A stretch of DNA of 62,075 nt, taken from Minisyncoccota bacterium (GTDB taxonomy: Bacteria; Patescibacteriota; Minisyncoccia; Phycocordibacterales; UBA1006). Under the pieces are notes generated by a model that worked only from the letters and a program-made list of their open reading frames with translations, was not told the origin of the DNA and did no database searches. The DNA lies in NCBI GenBank assembly GCA_021734445.1, contig JAIPIY010000003.1:1-62075 (forward strand), written 5' to 3'. Position numbers and translations under genes: made by a program. Each line of letters starts with the position of its first letter. The stretch's first letter is position 1. This document shows, one piece after another, positions 920 through 42,814 of this stretch.

Positions 920-1708
920 TTATCTTTTTACATCAAAGTATTTAGGTATTTCAGATAATATCCAATTATTAATTCCATCGATAACATCTTGAATTATCTT
1001 TTTATCTGTTGTTGGATTTAATGCCAAATGTAATACCTGGTGCATTTCCGATTCTTTTTCTGGGTAGTATTCTGAAAAATCTTTGTAGCACAAATATAAA
1101 TCCCTGGTATATCTTTTAGATCTTTCCATGGTTAATTCAAAACCTGTACGTAAAAAACCTTTCATTACCCAAGTGCAGAATTTCTTCATTTCTTCGTCAT
1201 CAGATTCCTCGGCAAGGAATTTTTTATATTTTACTAATCGATTATGGAAATTGGGTGCATGACTGACCATTTCTTTTCCTGGTTTCATTTTTGGTATAAC
1301 CAATGGTTTTCCATAAATACAAACAGACTGATTTAAGAGAATATAATCTTCTTCTATTATAGATAGCGGGTCTGCACTCATTTCAATATTATTTACAAAA
1401 TCATATTTTTCTTCTATGTGGGCACGCATTTTTCTGTTGGTTGAATTTTCTTTGAGATATTCTGCCGATTCATCTACATATGCAAAAGTATCTAAGTCAG
1501 AAATATAAGGTATTGCCTGACCTTTTGCTACGGATCCACGTAAATAAACTTGTTTTAATGCATCTCCGTATTTTTCTTTGTAGAGATTAATAACATCCTG
1601 AATTACTGCTTGATATTCGGGTTGTATGTTATCCAAAGATGCTGGATTAATCAGGTATCCATCTGTATCAATGTTAAAATAAGAACCCGTGGGTTGAATT
1701 TGTATCAT
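920..1708 (-). CDS. nucleotidyltransferase-fold protein (AadA/ANT-like)
   Basis: LRGSVAKGQAIPYISDLDTFAYV matches the GS...(D/E)xD minimal nucleotidyltransferase signature. Size and helical C-terminal half resemble adenylyltransferase-type NTases. Confidence 0.55.
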   Translation of the reverse strand: MIQIQPTGSYFNIDTDGYLINPASLDNIQPEYQAVIQDVINLYKEKYGDALKQVYLRGSVAKGQAIPYISDLDTFAYVDESAEYLKENSTNRKMRAHIEEKYDFVNNIEMSADPLSIIEEDYILLNQSVCIYGKPLVIPKMKPGKEMVSHAPNFHNRLVKYKKFLAEESDDEEMKKFCTWVMKGFLRTGFELTMERSKRYTRDLYLCYKDFSEYYPEKESEMHQVLHLALNPTTDKKIIQDVIDGINNWILSEIPKYFDVKR

Positions 1709-1756
1709 AATAGTTTTGTTGCTTTGTGTTAAAAAGTATACTACACTAAAAACAAG

Positions 1757-2058
1757 TTTGCACTTTTAGGTAGCTTTGGGGAGACTTAGTAATGGCGAAT
1801 GAAAAGTCCTTATCACCAACACCGGTCCCCAGAGTGAAATACACCTTATTGCTTCAGCATACGCCGAAAGGCTCCGTGATTCAGTTCACAAATATGCGAT
1901 GATGTCCCCTTCTTATCTGTCCTTTATGTGACTTTGTCCGTAAGACATAAGAAGTGTGTTCTACCTGTAGGAACCCTTTGGGGTGACAGTCGTCAGAACC
2001 AGACGGAAGTAATACGTGCGAGCCCACCCCTGTAGACGAGTTCTATGGGGGTGTTTTT
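1757..2058 (+). ncRNA. orphan structured RNA with its own terminator; RNase P RNA-like motifs (tentative, unassigned)
   Basis: About 300 nt GC-enriched non-coding stretch with no ORF. It contains several strong local hairpins (GCC-GAAA-GGC at about 1863-1872; CTTCTTA..TAAGAAG at about 1908-1954). It ends in CACCCC..GGGGGTG + TTTTTT (2025-2058), which fixes the strand. GAAAAGTCC, AGAGTGAAA and CGTCAGAACC resemble RNase P CR-I/CR-II/CR-IV, but I could not build a convincing P4 helix. Confidence 0.4.
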
Positions 2059-2159
2059 TATATAAAAAATTTCTTTGAAAAAAGCATGACCAGAACTTGA
2101 TTTAAGATATTTATCAAATGTTGCACCATGTGCTTCAAAAATAATTTCTAACCTCACGT

Positions 2160-2390
2160 TTAATCACTTAAACAGCTAAATATATTCTTTTGAAAACTCG
2201 ATATGTCTTGATTTGTTACTTCAAGGTCATTTACAGTAGAGTGACGAGCTTTTTCAAGATTTATCGCCATATCAAAACACTGTCTCATTTTTACTTCTTG
2301 TCGATAGGGCTGACAAAATGCGATATATGTTAAGAGGAGTACAACTATCGATAAAAGGATAAGATTTATTTTTTCTATTTTCATATTCAA
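2160..2390 (-). CDS. small hypothetical protein with N-terminal membrane anchor
   Basis: 76 aa ORF with hydrophobic N-terminus INLILLSIVVLLLTYIAF; no recognisable family. Confidence 0.35.
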   Translation of the reverse strand: MNMKIEKINLILLSIVVLLLTYIAFCQPYRQEVKMRQCFDMAINLEKARHSTVNDLEVTNQDISSFQKNIFSCLSD

Positions 2391-2467
2391 AAAATATTAT
2401 AATACGATACTACAAAAATCGAACGATACATAGTGAATCTTATAATCTGAGACATAATCCTGTTTTG

Positions 2468-2540
2468 TGGACCCGACTGGATTCGAACCAGCGACCTCCT
2501 CAGTGCAAGTGAGGCGCTCTACCAACTAAGCTACGGGCCC
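2468..2540 (-). tRNA. tRNA-Ala (anticodon UGC)
   Basis: Minus-strand cloverleaf GGGCCCGTAGCTTAGTTGGTAGAGCGCCTCACTTGCACTGAGG...GGTTCGAATCCAGTCGGGTCCA. Anticodon loop is CTTGCAC. The G3:U70 pair is present. CCA is not encoded. Confidence 0.9.
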
Positions 2541-2706
2541 AATGCCATTTGCCAAAAAGGCAATAATGGCTTGTGTTTCAGATATAATCCAAAACACAAT
2601 ATTAAACGTGAAAAGAACAACCTTCCCTATTGTACTGGTCTTTTCAAGAAATGCAAGACCTTTTTACAAAAAAGTCACAATTTCTTGTGGATATATAGGA
2701 TTAATC

Positions 2707-3648
2707 CTATATATTTCTTTTTGTTGCCAACTGCACAATATGCCAAATAAAATCATGAAATTTCACACCTACAGCGGTCAAACTGTGATCTAAAATACTG
2801 CCCACGGTCAAATCTGGTAATGCATGAACGCCAGTGATGATGATTCCCCGTTTTGGATGCACAATCATGTCTATCTGAGAATAATGTCGCAAGTGAAAAA
2901 GTCTATGAATTTTTTCTGCGATTTGTTGCACTTGCTTGCTTTCTTCTAATGAAATTGATGCTGGGCATAATCTTGTTTCTTTGTCGGAATATGGTTCGCA
3001 GGTTTCTACGGGGATACAGGTATAGTGTTCTTGTTCACGGAGATTTTCTATGACAATAACAGAAATGTGTTTACCACGTAATAATTCTTGTACCACAATA
3101 TCTTGGCCATCACGAAATGATGATTCTATTGCATGCACTAATTCTTGGAATGAATGCGCGATACGAATTCCGGTGACACCTTTTTTTGTTGGTTTTATTA
3201 ACCACGGCGGACTGATGGTTGCATGGACTTGACTTGCTGTATCGTATGCCTGTTCTGGATCTTGATTTCGTATAAAAATACTGGTGGGTGTTTTTACGTC
3301 ATGTAGTTTCAAAAAATCATTGGTGGTGTGGTGATGCGATGATATAAATACAGGATGCGTATGTGACCCCGTAAACGGCACTGGTAAAGATGCCAGTGTG
3401 TGCAATATATCATGCTCATGATGATGTCCTTCGTGTAATGCATTAAATACAATATCAGTATCGTGGACCAATGGTTCCATCACTGATGCATGAAAATCAT
3501 CATCCGCGTGTTCATAAGAAATAATAACATCATGAGGTTGAACATGGTGTCGGTGTAATGCAGAAAGAACTCGTCTTCCTGTTTCAAGAGATAGATTGTG
3601 GGTATGAATATTTCCCCCACGAAGAACTGCAATGCGAAGCGGTCTCAT
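2707..3648 (-). CDS. ddl: D-alanine--D-alanine ligase family (ATP-grasp) protein
   Basis: N-terminus RIAVLRGGNIHTHNLSLETGRRVL matches the Ddl start (AVLxGGxSxExxVSLxSG). Length and C-terminal ATP-grasp-like segment fit. Unusually His-rich. Confidence 0.6.
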   Translation of the reverse strand: MRPLRIAVLRGGNIHTHNLSLETGRRVLSALHRHHVQPHDVIISYEHADDDFHASVMEPLVHDTDIVFNALHEGHHHEHDILHTLASLPVPFTGSHTHPVFISSHHHTTNDFLKLHDVKTPTSIFIRNQDPEQAYDTASQVHATISPPWLIKPTKKGVTGIRIAHSFQELVHAIESSFRDGQDIVVQELLRGKHISVIVIENLREQEHYTCIPVETCEPYSDKETRLCPASISLEESKQVQQIAEKIHRLFHLRHYSQIDMIVHPKRGIIITGVHALPDLTVGSILDHSLTAVGVKFHDFIWHIVQLATKRNI

Positions 3649-3696
3649 ATGGATACAGTATACAAAAGAATATGCGATAACACAAAAGAATTTTGT

Positions 3697-4941
3697 CTAT
3701 CTTTGAATTTTTCTTTTTGATTTGTGATACGTAATTGCAAATCGATGAGCTTCATTGTTTGCAAGAAGAATGTGTTTTTTATATTTTTCAATAATATCTT
3801 CTACACCCATAAGCGCCTTTGGTTTGTGTTTTTCATCTTTGACTACAGCAACAATGGGTGCAGATATGCCATATAATCGGCAAATTCGTTCGGTAACTCT
3901 TTTTTGAGCCTTTCCCCCATCAACGACAATAAGGGACGGACTTCCCCATCCTGGATGCCCAAAACGACGTGTTAATATCTCTTCTAACGCTTTGGTATCA
4001 TTTGATTTGTTTACACTGCGTATGATGAATTTTCTGTATGCTGATTTTTGTGGTTCGCCATTTTCTATTACTGTCATTACCCCGACCATATTGTCGCCCT
4101 GCAAATGCGCGATATCAAATGCTTCGATGCGAAATGATTCTTTTGATGTATGTGTTTCATGTCGCAACAATGCAATATCATTAATATGTTCCAATGCAAA
4201 AATTTGTCTTTTGATTCTGTCGGCTTCTTCGAATTCTTGTTTTTGCGCTGACGTGTGCATGTTTTTTCGCAATCGTTCGATCAACGTATTTTTCTTTCCC
4301 GATAAAAAAAGTTCAAGACCTTTGATATTTTTCTCATAGGTTTTTTGAAACGAATCCTCGGTATCTTTTGGAGCTAGCCCCAAAGACATATAAAAATCTT
4401 TTGCATGAGATTGTGTTGATTTTTCGTCAAAAAATGGAAATAATTTACGAAGAATTTTCAGTGCAGTTCGTGCAGATGCACCCGATGGAAATGGACCAAA
4501 AAAAGACCGTAGCACTATTTTTTTTGACAATTCTGTCGGGTGGGCGATTTTTTTCGTGAAATCAATATCTCGTTCTCTGATCAGTAAAACCCGTGGTAGC
4601 GATTCTTTGGTAATCGCAATCATGTAATAGCTTTTGTTGTCTTTGTCGCGGGTATTGTATGTTGGTTGATGTTCTTTGATCAAACGTGATTCCGCCAATA
4701 ATGCTTCTAATACAGAATCATATGTTTCCCAAGTAATTTTTGTAACCTGAGAAACCATTTCAACAATTTTAGGACCACGAGACTGGTTAATATCTTTGTT
4801 TGCATAACTGGAAATTCTGTCACGTAATGACGTTGCCTTTCCAATATAGAGAAGATTTTTATTATTCCAGAAAAAATACACGCCAGGAGATTCTGGTGCT
4901 GGTTGTGCCATCTGTACTATTTCCGAACGATGTATTTTCAT
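3697..4941 (-). CDS. uvrC: excinuclease ABC subunit C, short form
   Basis: GIY-YIG N-terminus (GVYFFWNNKNLLYIGKATSLRDRISSY), UVR-like helix (EEADRIKRQIFALEHI) and a C-terminal NEAHRFAITYHK motif. It ends before the usual (HhH)2 domain. Confidence 0.8.
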   Translation of the reverse strand: MKIHRSEIVQMAQPAPESPGVYFFWNNKNLLYIGKATSLRDRISSYANKDINQSRGPKIVEMVSQVTKITWETYDSVLEALLAESRLIKEHQPTYNTRDKDNKSYYMIAITKESLPRVLLIRERDIDFTKKIAHPTELSKKIVLRSFFGPFPSGASARTALKILRKLFPFFDEKSTQSHAKDFYMSLGLAPKDTEDSFQKTYEKNIKGLELFLSGKKNTLIERLRKNMHTSAQKQEFEEADRIKRQIFALEHINDIALLRHETHTSKESFRIEAFDIAHLQGDNMVGVMTVIENGEPQKSAYRKFIIRSVNKSNDTKALEEILTRRFGHPGWGSPSLIVVDGGKAQKRVTERICRLYGISAPIVAVVKDEKHKPKALMGVEDIIEKYKKHILLANNEAHRFAITYHKSKRKIQR

Positions 4942-27173: not shown

Positions 27174-27229
27174 ATTAAGATATACTTTTAAACCTTTGAA
27201 AAATAAAGTTTATTTGGTATTATATGTGC

Positions 27230-29941
27230 ATGTCATTACCTGATAAATTTTTAAAACCCTTTGATGCTCAATCTATCGAAGACGGACTGTATGCAAAATG
27301 GCTTGCCAGTGGTCTTTTTAATCCTGACGTGTGCATAGAAAAAGGTTATACAAAACCTGATGCAGAATCTTTTAGCATTGTCTTACCTCCCCCAAACGTT
27401 ACAGGAACACTGCACACTGGTCATGCATTCATGCTGGCTATCGAAGATATTATGGTTCGCTACAACAGAATGCAGGGTAAAAAAACACTTTGGATTCCTG
27501 GAACCGACCATGCGGCTATTTCTACAGAATCAGTTATCGTAAAACAATTATCAAAAGAAGGAACAACAAAATTTAAAATCGGGCGAGAAGAATTTTTGAA
27601 ACGAGTAAACACATTTGCACAAGAATCTCATGATACCATTGTAGGACAAACAAAAAAAATGGGTGCATCATTGGATTGGTCCAGAGAAGCATTTACATTA
27701 GATGAACAACGACATCGTGCTGTGGTGACTGCGTTTAAAACCATGTATGACGATGGGTTGATTTATCGTGGTGATCGTATTGTAAACTGGGATCCAAAAG
27801 GACAAACAACCGTTTCAGATGACGAAGTAGATCGCGAAGAAGAGACTTCTAAATTTTACTATTTCAAATATGGGCCTTTCGTAATCGGAACTGCCCGACC
27901 AGAAACAAAATTTGGTGACAAATATGTTGTAATGCATCCTGATGATGCTCGTTTTTCTGAATATGCTCATGGACAAAAAATTGAATTAGAATGGATAAAT
28001 GGGCCAATGACTGCAACTGTTATCAAAGATACCGCTATTGATATGGAATTTGGTACTGGTGTGATGACTATTACTCCATGGCACAGTGCTATCGACTTTG
28101 AAATTGCAGAAAAATATAATCTAGACAAAGAGCAAATTATCGATATGTATGGGAAATTATTACCTATTGCTGGAGAATTTGCAGGAATGAAAATAGAAGA
28201 AGCTCGTGCAAAGATTGTTGAAAAATTGGATGCAAAAGGTCTTTTGGTAAAAATAGAAGATAACTACAAACACCAAAAAGCAATATCTCAGAGAACAAAA
28301 GCAACTATTGAACCTCAGATCATGAAGCAATGGTGGATTGATGTTAACAAACCTATTGCAAAAAGAGACAATCTTTCGTTAAAAGAATTGATGTTACGTG
28401 CGGTACGCGAAGATGGTGTAGCTATTATCCCCGACCGGTTTGAAAAGATTTATTTCAATTGGATCGAAAATCTCCGCGACTGGAATATCAGCCGACAAAT
28501 TTGGTACGGACACCAAATCCCTGTTTGGTATGATAAAGAAAATAATGTGCATTTGCCTCGTGAGCAAAAATTTATTTTTACTCGACATGGGGAAAGTCAG
28601 GCAAACCTGGATAAAGTATACGCGGGACAAGCAGACAGTCCGTTAACCACATTAGGTAAGGAGCAAGCACTTGATACCGCAAAGAAACTTCATGGAAAAA
28701 ATATTTCAAAGATTATATCATCTGATTTAAGTCGTGCATATGATACAGCCCAAATTATTGCAAAAGAATTAGGGATAGATAATATCGAAACATGGAAAGA
28801 ACTTCGTAATATGGATTTAGGTAATACTACTGGCACTCCGCTACCAGACAACAGCACTTCTTCAAAATTTACAAAAAAAACAATGATCGATATTGGCATA
28901 GAGTATAGTGATGGAGAGACGCTACAAGACCTAGAAAAACGGGCGCACGAAGTAATCAAAAAACTACAGAAATCATCTTCCGAAGGAGTCATTCTAATTG
29001 TTGGACATGGTCAATTTACTAGAATATTGCTCAGTGTTTTAAATGGTGATAAGGGTAATCAAATTCTTGATAATCAAAGAAAAATAACAATAGACAATTT
29101 GCAAATTTATGAAAAAACTTTATTTTTAAATCCAACAGGAGAAAATTTAACTCAGGATTCTGATACTTTGGATACCTGGTTTTCTTCTGGGTTATGGACA
29201 TTTTCAACACTTGGCTGGCCAGAAAATACAAATGATTTAAAAATATATCATCCAACATCAATATTAGAAACGGGTCACGATATTATTTTCTTTTGGGTTG
29301 CACGTATGATTTTGATGAGTACCTATTTATTAGGTGAAATTCCATTCAAAACAGTATACATGCACGGAATGGTTTTGGATAAAAATGGAAAGAAAATGAG
29401 TAAATCAAATCCAGAAACAGCTATTGATCCCCTGCTAACGATCGAAAAATACGGGGCTGACGCATTGCGTATGGCAATGATCGTTGGTGTTGGCCCTGGT
29501 CAAGACGTAACATTGTCAGAAGACAAAATCAAAGCCTACAGTAAATTTGCAAACAAAATTTGGAATGCAACCCGATTTGTATTAGAGCAAACCAATGCAG
29601 ACGATTTGCAAACAAAACCTGTTTTAGATCAAGAACACGCAGAATATATTAATCAATGGAATACACTGTCTACAGAAATCACAAAAGAAATGGATGAATT
29701 CAGATATTATCTGGTGTCTGAAAAATTATATCATTTCTTCTGGCACACGTTTGCAGATATTGTTATCGAAAAATGTAAATCAGATATGAACGATTCTGCA
29801 CGGTACACATTGCGATATCTGTTACACAGACAATTGATTACACTGCATCCATTCATGCCATTTATTACCGAAGAAATTTGGAGCTCTCTTTATCCAGACG
29901 GTGATCTTTTAATGATAACACCATGGAAATCAGCGGAGTAA
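27230..29941 (+). CDS. valS: valine--tRNA ligase with an inserted histidine-phosphatase domain
   Basis: HIGH-type PPPNVTGTLHTGHAF, the KMSKS box GKKMSKSNPE, and WNISRQIWYGHQIPVWY. Between that and DTLDTWFSSGLW lies an insert of about 190 aa starting FIFTRHGESQANL (nt about 28570-29140). Confidence 0.9.
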   Translation: MSLPDKFLKPFDAQSIEDGLYAKWLASGLFNPDVCIEKGYTKPDAESFSIVLPPPNVTGTLHTGHAFMLAIEDIMVRYNRMQGKKTLWIPGTDHAAISTESVIVKQLSKEGTTKFKIGREEFLKRVNTFAQESHDTIVGQTKKMGASLDWSREAFTLDEQRHRAVVTAFKTMYDDGLIYRGDRIVNWDPKGQTTVSDDEVDREEETSKFYYFKYGPFVIGTARPETKFGDKYVVMHPDDARFSEYAHGQKIELEWINGPMTATVIKDTAIDMEFGTGVMTITPWHSAIDFEIAEKYNLDKEQIIDMYGKLLPIAGEFAGMKIEEARAKIVEKLDAKGLLVKIEDNYKHQKAISQRTKATIEPQIMKQWWIDVNKPIAKRDNLSLKELMLRAVREDGVAIIPDRFEKIYFNWIENLRDWNISRQIWYGHQIPVWYDKENNVHLPREQKFIFTRHGESQANLDKVYAGQADSPLTTLGKEQALDTAKKLHGKNISKIISSDLSRAYDTAQIIAKELGIDNIETWKELRNMDLGNTTGTPLPDNSTSSKFTKKTMIDIGIEYSDGETLQDLEKRAHEVIKKLQKSSSEGVILIVGHGQFTRILLSVLNGDKGNQILDNQRKITIDNLQIYEKTLFLNPTGENLTQDSDTLDTWFSSGLWTFSTLGWPENTNDLKIYHPTSILETGHDIIFFWVARMILMSTYLLGEIPFKTVYMHGMVLDKNGKKMSKSNPETAIDPLLTIEKYGADALRMAMIVGVGPGQDVTLSEDKIKAYSKFANKIWNATRFVLEQTNADDLQTKPVLDQEHAEYINQWNTLSTEITKEMDEFRYYLVSEKLYHFFWHTFADIVIEKCKSDMNDSARYTLRYLLHRQLITLHPFMPFITEEIWSSLYPDGDLLMITPWKSAE

Positions 29942-39837: not shown

Positions 39838-42699
39838 TTAATTTTTAATAATAAAATTTACTGCACGGTTTGGTATGTATAATACTTTTTCTGGTTCACT
39901 GGTGAAATATTGCTCTACTTTTGTTTCTGATACTGCACGTTTTTTTATTTCGTCTTCACTGGTACCTATTGGTACTTCAATTGTACCACGAACCTTTCCA
40001 TTTACCTGCACAACAATTTTTATTGTGCTTTCTATAATTTTTGATGCATCATATTCTGGCCATACCGAAAGATGTATTGAATCTTTTTCACCAAACACAG
40101 TATACCAAATTTCTTCTGTAATATGAGGTGCAAAAGGTGCCAAAATTTGTAACAACGATGCATATTGATTTTTTCCAATATATTCTTCTTTTGTTATTTC
40201 ATTCACCAAAATCATCATATGAGAAACAGCGGTATTGAATTTGAACGCTTCGATATCATCACTGATTTTCTTTATGGTTTTATGAAGAATCATCTCCAGA
40301 TTTTGATTTTCTTCATCTTTGATTTTTTCTTTTTGTTTCCAAACTTTTTCCAAAAATCTTCGTGTTCCTACAACACCATCTGTATTCCACGGTACGGTAT
40401 TTTCAAAAGGACCAATGAACATTTCATACAAACGAAATGCATCGGCACCAAAACGATTTACCATATCATCTGGATTGATAACATTTTTCCAACGCTTGCT
40501 CATTTTCCGTCCGTCTTCGGCCAAAATAAAACCAAGAAATTCCAATCGCGGAAATGGTTCTAACCCAGAAACAACATCAATATCATACAAGAATTTATGC
40601 CAAAATCGCGCGTAGATGAGGTGTCGTGTCGCATGATCCCCACCCACGTACACATCAACCGGAAGCCAGTCTTTTTCTTTTGTAGAATCTATTGCATATT
40701 GATTATTTTTTGGATCAACATAGCGCAAATAATACCAGCTAGATCCTGCCCATTGTGGCATAGTGTTTGTTTCTCGTCTGAACATCTGACCACTTGCATC
40801 CTGCACGAAAGTCCCTTGGTCAGTAATCTTTCCACGCACGTTTACCCAATCATCGATTGTTGCCAATGGTGATTCCCCTGTCCCGGTTGGTTCGTAGCTG
40901 TCTACATTTGGTAACAGAATCGGTAATTCAGATGCATCTACAGGATAGACATTTCCGTCCGCGTCAAAAACCATCGGAATTGGTTCACCCCAATATCGTT
41001 GTCGTGAAAATACCCAGTCTTTGAGGCGATACGTTGACTTCATTTCCCCGCCGACAAATTCGGTGATTTTTTGTTTTGCTTCTTCTGAAGTAAGACCATT
41101 AAATTCCCCTGAATTAATCAATATCCCAAAATCAGTAAAAACCCGATCTTTCTTTAAAAACATTTCCCATGCATATGCATGATGAGGCCAATTAATCAAA
41201 TCTTTAATTTTTTCTTTTGGTGCCCACAACAAAGAATGTCTTCCTTCTTCAACTTCACTTGCAACTCTATTTTCAGATTTTAGTTTTATATGGAAAAAAT
41301 ATCCGTGAATTTTTTGATTCTTTAATTTTGTATGACGAAATGCAAAAGCGGAAACAAGATTAGGAATTTTTTCAATAATCTCAAAATCCGTATATCCAGT
41401 CTCTTCTCGTAATTCTTTTTCAAGAGCTTCTATTTCATTTTCTCCCTCTGTTCCACCGCCAACAAAATGAATTTTTTCTGTATTGTTAGCAGTTTCCTTG
41501 ATAAGTAAGAACTCTCCTTTTTCGTTTTCAATAATTATATCAATTACTTCTCGGTGTAATGTTTCTGCATCTTCTTTTGGTGCGTTATCCTCAGCACCTT
41601 CATAATAATAAGAAACAACTTCTTTTATCGGCAACTCATATTTCTTTGCAAATTCAAAATCTCGTTCATCGTGCGCAGGAACTGCCATTACCGCACCTGT
41701 TCCATAATGTGCTAAAACATAATCCGCAATATACACAGGAATTTCTTCTTTATTCGCAGGATTAATAGCAACAATACCCTCTAATTTTACTCCTGTTTTT
41801 TCTTTTCCTTCGGCAGTTCTGTCTATTTCGGTTTTTTCTGCAACTTGGGCAATATAGGTATTTACTTCATCACGATTTTCTATATCTAGTGTTTGTACGA
41901 GTGGATGTTCTGGAGCAAATACTATATATGTAGCACCAAATAATGTATCAGCACGGGTTGTGAATACCTTTACATTTTCACCAGTATTCAAGGCAAACGC
42001 AATTTCAGAGCCTTCGCTTTTTCCAATCCAGTTACGTTGCGCTTCTTTTACTCCTTCGGGCCATTTTGGCAAGGTATTTAAATCGACAAGTAGTCGATCA
42101 GCATAATCAGTAATTTTCAACACCCATTGTCGCATGGGTTTTTTCTCGACAACACTGCCACAACGTTCGCACGTTCCGTCAGATTCTAAATCTTCGTTTG
42201 CTAATCCAGTCTGACATCCTGGGCACCAGTTAATAGGTTCATGTGATTGATACGCCAAACCTTTTTCATACATTTTCAAAAACATCCATTGTGTCCATTT
42301 ATAAAAATTTGGATCAGTTGTGTCGATTTCTCGTGACCAATCGTAATCAGGACCAATCAATGACAACTGTTCTTTGAACCGCGCCACATTACGATCAACT
42401 GCTTCGCGTGGATGGACTTTGTTTTTAATAGCAAAGTTTTCTGCAGGCAATCCAAAAGCATCCCAACCCATAGGATGCAATACATTAAATCCATGCATAC
42501 GTTTAAAACGTGAATACACATCGGTCGCAATATATCCACGTGGATGACCTACGTGCAGACCTTCGCCCGATGGATATGGAAACATATCCAGAATATAAAA
42601 GTTCTTTTTGTCAGTTGTATCTTTGGTGGTATAGATACCATTTTGTGCCCAAATATCTTGCCATTTTTTCTCGATGTCTTTTGGATTATAGTCTTGCAT
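39838..42699 (-). CDS. leuS: leucine--tRNA ligase with an inserted Nudix domain
   Basis: FPYPSGEGLHVGHPRGY (HIGH), GRKMSKRWKN (KMSKS) and the CP1 editing domain. A roughly 155 aa insert (nt about 41150-41615) carries the Nudix box GGGTEGENEIEALEKELREETGY. Confidence 0.9.
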   Translation of the reverse strand: MQDYNPKDIEKKWQDIWAQNGIYTTKDTTDKKNFYILDMFPYPSGEGLHVGHPRGYIATDVYSRFKRMHGFNVLHPMGWDAFGLPAENFAIKNKVHPREAVDRNVARFKEQLSLIGPDYDWSREIDTTDPNFYKWTQWMFLKMYEKGLAYQSHEPINWCPGCQTGLANEDLESDGTCERCGSVVEKKPMRQWVLKITDYADRLLVDLNTLPKWPEGVKEAQRNWIGKSEGSEIAFALNTGENVKVFTTRADTLFGATYIVFAPEHPLVQTLDIENRDEVNTYIAQVAEKTEIDRTAEGKEKTGVKLEGIVAINPANKEEIPVYIADYVLAHYGTGAVMAVPAHDERDFEFAKKYELPIKEVVSYYYEGAEDNAPKEDAETLHREVIDIIIENEKGEFLLIKETANNTEKIHFVGGGTEGENEIEALEKELREETGYTDFEIIEKIPNLVSAFAFRHTKLKNQKIHGYFFHIKLKSENRVASEVEEGRHSLLWAPKEKIKDLINWPHHAYAWEMFLKKDRVFTDFGILINSGEFNGLTSEEAKQKITEFVGGEMKSTYRLKDWVFSRQRYWGEPIPMVFDADGNVYPVDASELPILLPNVDSYEPTGTGESPLATIDDWVNVRGKITDQGTFVQDASGQMFRRETNTMPQWAGSSWYYLRYVDPKNNQYAIDSTKEKDWLPVDVYVGGDHATRHLIYARFWHKFLYDIDVVSGLEPFPRLEFLGFILAEDGRKMSKRWKNVINPDDMVNRFGADAFRLYEMFIGPFENTVPWNTDGVVGTRRFLEKVWKQKEKIKDEENQNLEMILHKTIKKISDDIEAFKFNTAVSHMMILVNEITKEEYIGKNQYASLLQILAPFAPHITEEIWYTVFGEKDSIHLSVWPEYDASKIIESTIKIVVQVNGKVRGTIEVPIGTSEDEIKKRAVSETKVEQYFTSEPEKVLYIPNRAVNFIIKN

Positions 42700-42814
42700 A
42701 TTCATATATCATACCTGTTTCTTTTGCTTTCATCAATGTTTTTTCCAACAAAATCCACACCACACCATGTAATTTCTATTGATAACAAATCAAATGAGCG
42801 TATAATGAATTGAT

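What the first reader, a model, noticed from the sequence alone, without database searches (positions are those of the whole stretch)
28570..29140. ValRS carries a complete histidine-phosphatase (PGAM-like, RHGE) domain inserted in the catalytic core
Canonical ValRS has only a short zinc-knuckle segment between the motif WNISRQIWYGHQIPVWY and DTLDTWFSSGLW. Here that position holds about 190 aa beginning FIFTRHGESQANLDKVYAGQADSPLTTLGKEQA and including SSDLSRAYDTAQ and ILIVGHGQFTR. These are the RHG, catalytic-acid and second-His blocks of the histidine phosphatase superfamily.

The HIGH and KMSKS boxes are intact, so the synthetase looks functional. I am not aware of a described aaRS with this insertion. 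Together with the Nudix insertion in LeuRS, it suggests that nucleotide or phosphate hydrolysis is coupled to class Ia synthetases in this lineage.
Basis: partly seen in the sequence, partly recalled or inferred. Interest (0 to 1): 0.6.

Follow-up and report, generated by a model that had tools for sequence, protein, structure and literature searches.

The report
Phosphatase domain inserted in valyl-tRNA synthetase
The only valyl-tRNA synthetase of this tiny-genome bacterium carries a complete histidine-phosphatase domain inside its catalytic core, one case of a recurrent and apparently undescribed habit of such bacteria, though this copy lacks one catalytic residue.

Summary
The ORF at 27224-29941 (+, 905 aa) is the genome's only ValRS. 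Residues 451-614 match Pfam His_Phos_1 (E 2.6e-37). They replace the roughly 12-20 aa CP3 hairpin that follows WNISRQ...PVWY.

It is not an assembly chimera. Independent contigs bridge both junctions. The same architecture occurs in other genomes, metagenome proteins and 11 named Patescibacteria MAG loci.

- The same genome's IleRS carries an independently acquired His_Phos at the equivalent site. That insert is present in 63 of 69 IleRS sampled across the order.
- ValRS inserts are patchy. A same-genus genome and an ~88%-identical contig lack the insert precisely, and the gene is a recombination mosaic.
- The phosphate pocket (R454, H455, N461, R504, H595) is intact, but the proton-donor Glu is Asn529 here. 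Glu is lost in 6 of 25 ValRS-embedded domains, 0 of 35 IleRS-embedded ones and 1 of 171 free ones.

I found no published description in 9 literature searches. I rate it a new variant of a known kind. The substrate and role are unknown.

The parts
27224..29941 (+). valS: the sole valyl-tRNA synthetase gene of the genome, 905 aa. It has no C-terminal coiled-coil arm.
   Evidence: ORF list. Pfam. NCBIfam NF004349 scores 817.4 against cut-off 704, and TIGR00422 scores 765.9 against 612.1. It is the only ValRS-level hit in the 672-kb genome.
27413..27424 (+). HIGH signature, written HTGH, residues 64-67.
   Evidence: H64, G66 and H67 are invariant across 37 ValRS.
27806..28333 (+). CP1 editing domain, about residues 195-370. 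Its core, nt 27919-28235, is a diverged cassette compared with the same-genus allele.
   Evidence: Pfam tRNA-synt_1_2 gives only a weak hit. 1wka/1wk9 align to residues 215-346. Sliding identity is 32-59% to G001 but 82-95% to P0002. blastn finds no match over 27919-28235.
28481..28543 (+). CP2-CP3 linker motif WNISRQIWYGHQIPVWY plus the first hairpin strand DKEN, ending at the 5' junction of the insert.
   Evidence: In yeast IleRS the equivalent ARDWNVSRNRYWG is called the CP2-3 linker and lines the tRNA-site pocket (PMC7955072, passages read).
28544..29161 (+). Inserted segment absent from the same-genus allele: the His_Phos domain with its two linkers, residues about 441-646.
   Evidence: blastn of G000 against G001 shows 57 nt in its place. 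The X6 contig joint reads 'skips 625, 64 letters between'.
28574..29065 (+). Pfam His_Phos_1 match, residues 451-614.
   Evidence: E 2.6e-37. (PF00300 on the genome, 132.6 bits). PDB relatives are CobC 6e4b and PhoE 1h2e. AF2 pLDDT is mostly 88-97 here, with one weak loop at residues 545-550.
28583..28606 (+). RHGESQAN: R454, nucleophile H455, G456 and N461 of the phosphate pocket.
   Evidence: Residue roles are taken from PMC12051542 (R8, H9, N15; passages read).
28733..28735 (+). R504, the second pocket arginine, in SSDLSRAYDTA.
   Evidence: Conserved in 24 of 25 ValRS-embedded domains.
28808..28810 (+). N529 (codon AAT) at the position of the Glu proton donor.
   Evidence: It aligns to the Glu of PhoE 1h2e, CobC 6e4b and 9mmh. 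The Logan contigs have no differences here. Two base changes separate AAT from GAA or GAG.
29006..29008 (+). H595, the second pocket histidine, in LIVGHG.
29162..29182 (+). DTLDTWF: the catalytic (Rossmann) fold resumes, just 3' of the junction.
   Evidence: D647 through F653 are invariant.
29393..29407 (+). KMSKS signature, residues 724-728.

Best explanation
**What it is (shown).** This is the organism's single, functional-looking ValRS. Its CP3 hairpin follows the CP2-CP3 linker WNISRQ...PVWY. It is a ~20-aa loop in insert-less relatives and a Zn knuckle in Thermus. Here it has been expanded by a complete ~180-aa branch-1 histidine-phosphatase (PGAM-like) domain, so the module sits at the tip of that hairpin.

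**How it got there (shown and inferred).** It is heritable. It belongs to a clade of ValRS-specific inserts derived from short free-standing His_Phos proteins of Patescibacteria. It was not copied from the IleRS insert of the same genome, which is a separate and much more widespread acquisition at the equivalent site. ValRS inserts come and go between close relatives, most plausibly by recombination between valS alleles and by precise loss (inferred).

**Mechanism (inferred).** The domain keeps the whole phosphate pocket: R454, nucleophile H455, N461, R504 and H595. It can therefore still bind a phosphomonoester, and perhaps be phosphorylated by one. It has Asn529 where the family's Glu protonates the leaving group and activates water. 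I therefore predict that this copy turns over slowly or not at all, and acts mainly as a phosphate-binding or structural CP3 module on an active ValRS.

Glu-bearing orthologues (P0002, G017 and others) and the IleRS inserts are predicted to be real phosphomonoesterases tethered beside the acceptor-end/ATP pocket. The substrate is unknown. Candidates are nucleoside 5'-, 2'- or 3'-monophosphates, or a terminal phosphate of tRNA.
For: **Domain identity and completeness.** Pfam E 2.6e-37; PDB relatives CobC and PhoE; AF2 model with mean pLDDT 90.7 and pTM 0.87; whole model matches 1gax at TMq 0.71.

**Functional host.** It is the only ValRS in G000, which is 90% complete. Insert-bearing ValRS was also the only ValRS-level match in G017, G010 and G037. 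HIGH and KMSKS are intact and the valS equivalog cut-offs are passed.

**Not an artefact.**
- Logan contigs of runs X1 and X2 cover 27200-29873 and 27564-29768 with 0 differences.
- A 263-nt contig from another study (X3) bridges the 5' junction.
- The architecture recurs in P0002 and P0003; in G017, G037 and G010; in G069, G185 and G266; in 8 of 8 long metagenome proteins scanned; and in 11 of 11 named MAG loci.

**Site.** The hairpin strands are preserved on both sides of the insert. CP3 assignment comes from PMC7955072 and PMC7191050.

**Origin.**
- 8 of 9 ValRS inserts form a clade with support 98/97, and the IleRS inserts form another with 96/89.
- A single clade of all embedded domains is rejected (p-AU 5e-6).
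- Host ValRS cores of the insert-bearers are not one clade (p-AU 1e-51) and need at least 6 state changes.
- The gene is a mosaic against same-genus G001.

**Pocket kept, acid lost.** R, H, R and H are kept in 25/25, 25/25, 24/25 and 24/25 ValRS-embedded domains. Glu is kept in 19 of 25, and is Asn here. Residue roles are from PMC12051542.
Against: - No activity, binding or structure with tRNA was measured.
- Asp531, two residues after Asn529, might substitute as the acid.
- Proton donors vary across the superfamily (PMC12051542).
- Loss of Glu in 6 of 25 ValRS inserts, together with easy loss of the whole insert in close relatives, would also fit a neutral passenger.
- P0010, P0041 and P0058 were counted as ValRS only because they match the query's ValRS flanks. 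They were not scanned with Pfam.
- One IleRS row (L073) comes from the unpublished genome G271.
Confidence: 0.6

Rival explanations
1. Neutral passenger. CP3 is a structurally permissive surface loop. A small domain whose ends lie close together was inserted there and is merely tolerated. It has no ligand-binding or catalytic role in ValRS and is decaying in this copy.
For: - CP3 differs in fold between IleRS structures (PMC7191050).
- Other ValRS of the family carry unrelated extras at the same loop: G002 has a spacing of 126 aa, G009 73 aa.
- The insert is absent from 35 of 38 relatives with a ValRS hit, from same-genus G001, and from an ~88%-identical contig.
- The proton donor is lost in 6 of 25 ValRS inserts, against 1 of 171 free-standing domains.
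Against: - The four pocket residues are kept in 24-25 of 25 ValRS-embedded domains, although inserts are only 32-60% identical.
- The same domain type entered the equivalent site of IleRS independently. There it is kept in 63 of 69 IleRS, with all five catalytic residues in 21 of 21.
- A third independent ValRS insertion exists in G266.
- Tandem arrays of 2-4 copies exist.
Confidence: 0.25
2. Fully active bifunctional enzyme in this copy too. Another residue, such as Asp531, or the substrate itself supplies the proton. The domain then hydrolyses a phosphate ester in step with aminoacylation.
For: The nucleophile and pocket are intact. Proton donors vary across the superfamily (PMC12051542). 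Asp531 lies two residues downstream. LeuRS of the same window has a Nudix domain with a near-intact Nudix box, and IleRS has a fully intact His_Phos.
Against: The aligned Glu is the proton donor in PhoE-type enzymes, and 8 of 9 ValRS inserts collected here keep it. In those relatives the residue aligned to Asp531 is D in 5 of the other 8, so it is not a new compensating change.
Confidence: 0.12
3. Artefact or dead gene: an assembly chimera, a pseudogene, or an intein-like mobile element that is removed from the protein.
For: None found. The source is a metagenome-assembled genome of 11 contigs, which is the only general reason for suspicion.
Against: - The frame is open through 905 codons.
- Contigs from two runs bridge both junctions with 0 differences, and a contig from another study bridges the 5' junction.
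- The same architecture occurs in many independent assemblies.
- GC content of the insert is 34.5%, against 36.9% for the rest of the gene.
- Pfam finds no intein or Hint family, only 5 families in all.
- It is the only ValRS in the genome.
Confidence: 0.02

Closest known systems
Thermus thermophilus valyl-tRNA synthetase (PDB 1GAX)
   Same: Class Ia ValRS with the same domain order. It aligns over residues 11-451 and 641-895 (E 2.5e-158). Foldseek TMq is 0.71.
   Different: Thermus has about 12 residues (a CxxC...CxxC knuckle) where this protein has about 190. Thermus has the C-terminal coiled-coil arm, which Pfam did not detect here (PF10458 absent).
PhoE / CobC-type branch-1 histidine phosphatases (PDB 1H2E, 6E4B)
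   Same: Same fold family and size. RHG, the second Arg and the second His align. The best NCBIfam model is the alpha-ribazole phosphatase model.
   Different: It does not reach any equivalog cut-off (91.5 against 162.9 bits). The Glu proton donor is Asn. It is embedded in another enzyme rather than free-standing.
IleRS with embedded His_Phos, from the same genome and order
   Same: Same domain type in the equivalent CP3 position of a paralogous class Ia synthetase.
   Different: It is an independent acquisition. It is present in 63 of 69 IleRS sampled, and all five catalytic residues are kept in 21 of 21.
NCBIfam NF040702 'ileS_w_GNAT' (IleRS containing an N-acetyltransferase domain)
   Same: A curated precedent for a bacterial class Ia synthetase that carries an extra enzyme domain (model name seen).
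   Different: The guest domain is different. I did not examine where the GNAT domain sits. This ValRS scores far below that model's cut-off (168 against 1999 bits).
CP1 editing domain of IleRS, ValRS and LeuRS
   Same: The classical example of a hydrolytic domain inserted into the class Ia Rossmann fold and acting on the tRNA 3' end (PMC13114784, passages read).
   Different: CP1 is universal and ancient, and its substrate is known. The His_Phos insert sits in CP3, is lineage-specific and dispensable, and its substrate is unknown.
RNase H / acid phosphatase (CobC-like) fusion, NCBIfam NF005567
   Same: A His_Phos domain of the same subtype fused to a nucleic-acid enzyme. It is the second-best NCBIfam hit of the insert (E 3.5e-23).
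   Different: That is an end-to-end fusion, not an insertion, and the partner enzyme is different. The cut-off is not reached (82.5 against 326 bits).

Membership tests
Valyl-tRNA synthetase (class Ia) | Score above the curated equivalog cut-offs for valS | tested here: met
   NF004349 scores 817.4 against 704, and TIGR00422 scores 765.9 against 612.1.
Valyl-tRNA synthetase (class Ia) | HIGH and KMSKS signature motifs | tested here: met
   HTGH at residues 64-67 and KMSKS at 724-728. The motif residues H64, G66, H67, K724, S726, K727 and S728 are invariant in 37 ValRS.
Valyl-tRNA synthetase (class Ia) | CP1 editing domain with its conserved Asp | tested here: met
   The editing domain aligns to 1wka/1wk9 over residues 215-346. 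GTG, H287 and D291 are invariant in 37 ValRS. That D291 is the universal editing Asp is recalled, not tested.
Valyl-tRNA synthetase (class Ia) | Anticodon-binding helical domain | tested here: met
   Pfam Anticodon_1, E 3.6e-22, residues 809-903.
Valyl-tRNA synthetase (class Ia) | C-terminal coiled-coil tRNA-binding arm (PF10458). Typical of bacterial ValRS but not strictly defining. | tested here: not met
   There is no PF10458 hit, and the protein ends at the anticodon domain. Insert-less relatives of the order have open frames of 713-770 aa. ValRS+His_Phos proteins from elsewhere do have it.
Valyl-tRNA synthetase (class Ia) | Valine activation and charging of tRNA-Val | not testable with these tools
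   Needs an enzyme assay.
Histidine phosphatase superfamily, branch 1 (Pfam His_Phos_1) | Score above the Pfam gathering threshold | tested here: met
   128.8 bits against 21.7, E 2.6e-37, profile positions 2-166 of 194.
Histidine phosphatase superfamily, branch 1 (Pfam His_Phos_1) | RHG motif with the nucleophilic His, plus the second Arg and second His of the phosphate pocket | tested here: met
   R454, H455, G456, R504 and H595, plus N461. Roles are taken from PMC12051542.
Histidine phosphatase superfamily, branch 1 (Pfam His_Phos_1) | Glu proton donor (the PhoE-type acid) | tested here: not met
   Asn529 aligns with the Glu of 1h2e, 6e4b and 9mmh. 8 of 9 ValRS inserts collected here have Glu. 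The superfamily tolerates variation at this position, so family membership stands while full catalytic competence is in doubt.
Histidine phosphatase superfamily, branch 1 (Pfam His_Phos_1) | Alpha/beta fold of the family | tested here: inconclusive
   The AF2 model is confident over the insert, with alternating strands and helices. I did not fold-search the domain on its own. The whole-model search returned synthetases among the 50 matches listed.
Histidine phosphatase superfamily, branch 1 (Pfam His_Phos_1) | Phosphatase or mutase activity | not testable with these tools
   Needs an assay.
Named His_Phos subfamilies (CobC alpha-ribazole phosphatase, dPGM/GpmB, PspA, SixA) | Score above the NCBIfam equivalog cut-off | tested here: not met
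   The best is ribazole_cobC at 91.5 against 162.9. GpmB scores 81.8 against 261, dPGM_arch 78.1 against 225, PspA 68 against 350, and SixA 31.2 against 74.5.
Intein or other self-removing insertion | Hint/intein splicing domain or homing endonuclease | tested here: not met
   Pfam lists only 5 families for the protein, none of them intein-related.

The most novel reading that the evidence does not exclude
Patescibacteria have repeatedly turned their class Ia synthetases into bifunctional enzymes. They inserted small hydrolases into them: His_Phos into CP3 of IleRS and ValRS, in at least three separate events, and Nudix into LeuRS. On this reading the guest domains perform a second reaction physically coupled to aminoacylation. 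Examples would be removal of a terminal phosphate from damaged or immature tRNA, or destruction or salvage of a nucleotide by-product at the synthetic site. That would be a new kind of tRNA or nucleotide quality control, or of metabolic coupling, built into the synthetase.
Probability: 0.25. Interest if true: 0.85.

Novelty: new variant of a known kind. Interest (0 to 1): 0.62.

Why it matters
Bacterial aminoacyl-tRNA synthetases are among the most conserved enzymes known, and extra catalytic domains inside their cores are rare. Here a phosphatase-type domain has entered the same surface element (CP3) of two paralogous synthetases independently, and of ValRS at least twice. It is almost fixed in the IleRS of a whole order of ultra-small bacteria. 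It also occurs in tandem arrays elsewhere.

That pattern is hard to reconcile with pure accident in genomes under strong reduction. It points to an unrecognised activity or ligand linked to Ile/Val charging.

The system is also directly testable. There are natural pairs with and without the insert at about 88% DNA identity, and natural variants with and without the catalytic Glu. The mosaic structure of valS further shows that essential translation genes in these organisms exchange internal cassettes by recombination.

Tried and rejected
**Assembly chimera.** Rejected (and the recurrence in other assemblies).

**Second ValRS in the genome that would make this copy dispensable.** None was found in the 90%-complete genome.

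**ValRS insert copied from the IleRS insert of the same genome.** Rejected by the domain tree and the AU test.

**Single ancient insertion with strictly vertical descent.** Host cores of insert-bearers are not one clade (p-AU 1e-51), although the group was named after I had seen the tree. The insert tree and host tree are only partly congruent, so I cannot separate repeated loss from lateral exchange.

**Foreign-DNA signature.** The insert's GC content is ordinary.

**Intein.** No such Pfam family was found.

**Geometry of the pocket relative to the synthetic and editing sites.** I could not do this, because structure prediction returns no coordinates.

**Expression.** No RNA holder was listed for the stretch. 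This is no evidence either way.

**Literature.** Nine searches gave no description of a synthetase with a His_Phos or Nudix insertion, and term look-ups in two papers found none (neither 'phosphoglycerate mutase', 'histidine phosphatase' nor 'Nudix' occurs in PMC13114784; neither 'phosphatase', 'insertion module', 'Patescibacteria', 'CPR' nor 'Nudix' occurs in PMC11580382). Subscription journals and supplementary files were not searchable, and such files may list these architectures.

**Caveat on the IleRS count.** I read a single alignment row spanning query residues ~505-700 as 'insert present'. Two genomes counted that way, G034 and G082, gave no hit to the ValRS-insert query, so their inserts may be divergent or the reading wrong for them.


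Full report
**1.

The window carries one long ORF at 27224-29941 (+), 905 aa. Pfam splits tRNA-synt_1 (E 3.2e-122) into two stretches around a His_Phos_1 match. That match covers residues 451-614 at E 2.6e-37 (128.8 bits against a gathering score of 21.7) and spans profile positions 2-166 of 194. An Anticodon_1 domain follows.

Against solved structures, Thermus ValRS 1gax aligns to residues 11-451 and 641-895, with only chain residues 432-445 between. The middle part hits CobC (6e4b), PhoE (1ebb, 1h2e) and other PGAM-type phosphatases.

The protein passes the NCBIfam equivalog cut-offs for valS: 817.4 against 704 and 765.9 against 612.1. HTGH (64-67) and KMSKS (724-728) are present. It is the only ValRS-level match in the 672-kb, 11-contig genome, which is 90% complete. 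The other hits are IleRS on contig C9 and LeuRS in the window.

**2. Where exactly the insert sits.**

Insert-less relatives read WY-KGEEIYVGIEAPxGEGWxQD-DTLDTWF between the WxISRQ strand and the resumption of the Rossmann fold, a spacing of 37-46 residues in most. This ValRS has a spacing of 227. Both hairpin strands survive: WYDKENNVHL before the domain and NPTGENLTQD after it.

Against the same-genus genome G001, DNA identity is 88% up to 27918, 84% over 28236-28543, and 89% from 29162 on. Nucleotides 28544-29161 are replaced by 57 nt in G001.

In yeast IleRS the homologous ARDWNVSRNRYWG is the 'CP2-3 linker', which lines the tRNA-site pocket. The next segment is CP3, which then leads into the second half of the Rossmann fold (PMC7955072, passages read). 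CP3 differs in topology between IleRS structures and carries a zinc motif in Thermus (PMC7191050, passages read). The His_Phos domain is therefore an expansion of CP3.

An AlphaFold2 model built from 37 ValRS has mean pLDDT 90.7 and pTM 0.87. The insert is mostly at 88-97, with one weak loop at 545-550. Foldseek's best match is 1gax at TMq 0.71. I had no access to coordinates, so I cannot say which way the pocket faces.

**3. It is not an artefact.**

- Logan contigs of two runs cover 27200-29873 and 27564-29768 with no differences. These runs may be the source samples, but they were assembled independently.
- A 263-nt contig from a different study covers 28440-28702 with 11 differences, bridging the 5' junction.
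- A 20-kb contig from yet another study matches both flanks at about 86-89% identity. It has 64 nt in place of 625 nt, so it is a close relative without the insert.
- The insert's GC content (34.5%) is like the rest of the gene (36.9%).
- The same architecture appears in two metagenome proteins, P0002 (61% identical in the insert) and P0003.

**4. Distribution.**

*ValRS among close relatives.* Of 40 relatives, 38 gave a ValRS-level match. Three of these (G017, G037, G010) align through the insert, and 35 split around it. The other two, G005 and G016, gave only IleRS-level hits.

*ValRS across the order.* In a 401-genome sample of the order, the 150 listed matches included ValRS-embedded domains in G000, G017, G069, G185, G037 and G266. 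A further 437 matches were not listed, so this is a lower bound.

*ValRS across the phylum and beyond.*
- In a 201-genome sample of the phylum, G564 has a ValRS with two domains and G545 has one with a single domain.
By their record titles they come from Paceibacterota, Paceibacteria, 'Patescibacteria group', Moraniibacteriota, Saccharibacteria and Doudnabacteria. Two are MAGs labelled uncultured Gammaproteobacteria, and one is an unclassified 'bacterium'.
- In the 1.84-billion-protein library the insert has 18,854 hits at E <= 0.001. Of the top 150, I scanned 16 long proteins with Pfam.
- Eight of the first eight are ValRS with one (P0020, P0035, P0061, P0082), two (P0008, P0009, P0011) or four (P0007) His_Phos domains.
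- Seven of the second eight carry tRNA-synt_1 with two His_Phos stretches, and six of those also have the DUF5915 domain of IleRS. P0073 is His_Phos only.

*IleRS.* The same genome's IleRS (contig C9, 1157 aa) has His_Phos_1 at residues 515-676 (E 7.8e-26), again after WAISRD...PIW and before DVWFDSG. I searched one genome from each of 70 families of the order.
- 69 had an IleRS.
- 63 aligned through or into the insert.
- 6 (G047, G048, G061, G080, G086, G088) split around it, with frames of 950-1017 aa.
- G072, which is 68% complete, gave no match.

The ValRS insert is thus the rare case and the IleRS insert is the rule. The own genome also has one free-standing His_Phos, at C10:19472-20047.

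**5. Origin.**

I built a careful maximum-likelihood tree of 43 His_Phos domains.
- It places 8 of 9 ValRS inserts, plus one truly free-standing protein (L046), in one clade with support 98/97.
- It places the 21 IleRS inserts, plus one short ORF, in another clade with support 96/89.
- It places the G266 ValRS insert apart. That insert still lies between the two CxxC pairs of a zinc knuckle.

Holding all 30 embedded domains together is rejected (p-AU 5e-6). Holding all 9 ValRS inserts together is weakly rejected (p-AU 0.02). There are therefore at least three insertions of the same domain type into the equivalent loop.

On a tree of ValRS cores with the loop removed, insert-bearers are scattered. 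At least 6 state changes are needed among 34 rows, and one clade of the seven main-type hosts is rejected (p-AU 1e-51). I named that group after seeing the tree.

The gene is a mosaic. Against same-genus G001 it is 92-100% identical over residues 1-200, 380-460 and 660-905. It is only 32-59% identical over ~200-360, the editing domain, where it is 82-95% identical to P0002. The X6 relative has the G000-type editing domain but no insert. Internal cassettes of valS are evidently exchanged or lost between close lineages. I cannot separate repeated precise loss from lateral exchange.

**6. Is the domain catalytically competent?**

In histidine phosphatases, two Arg and two His form the phosphate pocket. 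The RHG His is phosphorylated, an Asn six residues on helps binding, and a Glu (as in PhoE 1H2E) donates the proton and activates water (PMC12051542, passages read).

Here R454, H455, N461, R504 and H595 are present, but the Glu position is Asn529 (ELRNMDLG, codon AAT). This shows in three independent pairwise alignments and in an HMM alignment.

| Group of domains | R, H, R, H kept | Glu kept |
|---|---|---|
| 9 ValRS inserts collected here (6 from genomes of the order, 3 metagenome proteins or fragments) | 9 of 9 for all four | 8 of 9 (this copy is the exception) |
| 16 ValRS-embedded domains, global library | 16, 16, 15 and 15 of 16 | 11 of 16 (Ala x3, Gly x2) |
| IleRS-embedded, order | 21 of 21 for all four | 21 of 21 |
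| IleRS-embedded, global | 13 of 14 for the RHG Arg and His (one fragment lacks that region); 14 of 14 for the second Arg and His | 14 of 14 |
| Free-standing, order | 13 of 13 for all four | 13 of 13 |
| Free-standing, single-domain, global | 91, 92, 92 and 91 of 92 | 91 of 92 |
| Free-standing, two-domain, global | 66, 66, 64 and 65 of 66 | 66 of 66 |

Three of the 'global ValRS' proteins (P0010, P0041, P0058) were assigned by their match to the ValRS flanks only. One IleRS row comes from the unpublished genome G271.

The pattern is a strictly kept pocket with a repeatedly lost acid, and it is seen only in ValRS. It suggests that in ValRS the module is selected for binding a phosphate group more than for turnover.

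**7. Best reading and rivals.**

I conclude with high confidence that this is a real, heritable CP3 expansion of a working ValRS by a histidine-phosphatase domain.

With moderate confidence (about 0.6) I conclude that this copy is a phosphate-binding, catalytically impaired module, and that Glu-bearing relatives and the IleRS inserts are active phosphomonoesterases. The substrate is unknown. Nucleoside monophosphates or a terminal phosphate of tRNA are my candidates, because the CP2-3 linker lines the tRNA-end pocket. That step is inference.

The rivals are:
- a neutral passenger at a permissive loop (0.25);
- full activity despite Asn529 (0.12);
- an artefact or pseudogene (0.02).

**8. Comparison with what is known.**

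Domain insertions into the class Ia Rossmann fold are classical, CP1 editing being the standard case (PMC13114784). NCBIfam even has a model for an IleRS that contains a GNAT domain.

I found no description of a synthetase with a His_Phos or Nudix insertion. This rests on nine full-text searches and term look-ups in two papers. Subscription journals and supplements were not covered. The sequences are public and auto-annotated as valine--tRNA ligase; one source name was seen. I rate this a new variant of a known kind.

**9.

The LeuRS in the window (39844-42705, minus strand) does carry a NUDIX domain at residues 384-506, E 1.5e-12. By my reading against the consensus recalled from memory, its Nudix box is intact except for Arg to Lys.

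A search with that segment hit frames of 950-1160 aa in 11 of 40 relatives, plus a 617-aa frame in a twelfth (G030). It did not hit same-genus G001. I did not verify that those frames are LeuRS.

All three editing-type class Ia synthetases of this genome thus carry a small hydrolase domain. That makes the 'coupled hydrolysis' idea worth testing, but nothing here shows coupling.

Noticed in passing
Outside the window: G000 contig C9, 11285-14773 (-); locus L002:43-3513:-: The genome's IleRS (1157 aa, with DUF5915) has a His_Phos_1 domain at residues 515-676, at the equivalent CP3 position, with all five catalytic residues intact. This insert is present in 63 of 69 IleRS sampled across the order and arose independently of the ValRS insert.
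   Followed up: yes
window 39844-42705 (-); Nudix part about 41161-41583: LeuRS (954 aa) carries a NUDIX domain at residues 384-506, just after the editing domain. Its Nudix box looks intact except for Arg to Lys. Similar segments lie in 950-1160-aa frames in 11 of 40 relatives, plus a 617-aa frame in a twelfth (G030), but not in the same-genus genome. I did not verify that those frames are LeuRS.
   Followed up: partly
window 27919-28235 (ValRS residues ~200-360): The editing-domain core of valS is a diverged cassette. It is 32-59% identical (aa) to the same-genus allele, while the rest of the protein is 92-100% identical. It is 82-95% identical to metagenome protein P0002. This points to recombination inside an essential gene.
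   Followed up: partly
window 29800-29941 (C-terminus of ValRS): This ValRS ends at the anticodon-binding domain, with no Val_tRNA-synt_C coiled-coil arm. Insert-less relatives have open frames of only 713-770 aa, so the arm seems to be missing across this order. ValRS+His_Phos proteins from other lineages do have it.
   Followed up: partly
Proteins P0007, P0008, P0009, P0011 (ValRS) and P0033, P0110, P0120 (IleRS): Metagenome synthetases carry tandem His_Phos domains: up to four in a ValRS fragment, and two in ValRS and IleRS of 1329-1538 aa. In P0110 and P0120 the second domain lies just before the anticodon domain, which is a different site.
   Followed up: partly
L099 (MAG labelled uncultured Gammaproteobacteria), ORF 1276-4701: In this ValRS the His_Phos domain lies after DTLDTWF and before KMSKS, a different insertion point from the window's.
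   Followed up: no
L019 (G002) and L016 (G009), same loop of ValRS: Other relatives carry unrelated extras at the same hairpin. G002 has about 85 extra residues with no His_Phos similarity, although it is sister to insert-bearing G017. G009 has a Cys-containing extension of about 35 residues.
   Followed up: no
L046 (G243), ORF 1498-2034: A free-standing 178-aa His_Phos gene nests inside the clade of ValRS inserts, sister to the G010 insert on a long branch. It may be an excised domain or a long-branch artefact.
   Followed up: partly
L096 (MAG labelled Saccharibacteria): The ValRS with His_Phos is split into two overlapping frames of 330 and 649 aa. This may be a frameshift or an assembly error.
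   Followed up: no
Outside the window: G000 contig C10, 19472-20047 (-): A third His_Phos_1 domain of the genome lies in a free-standing 286-aa frame (92 bits).
   Followed up: no
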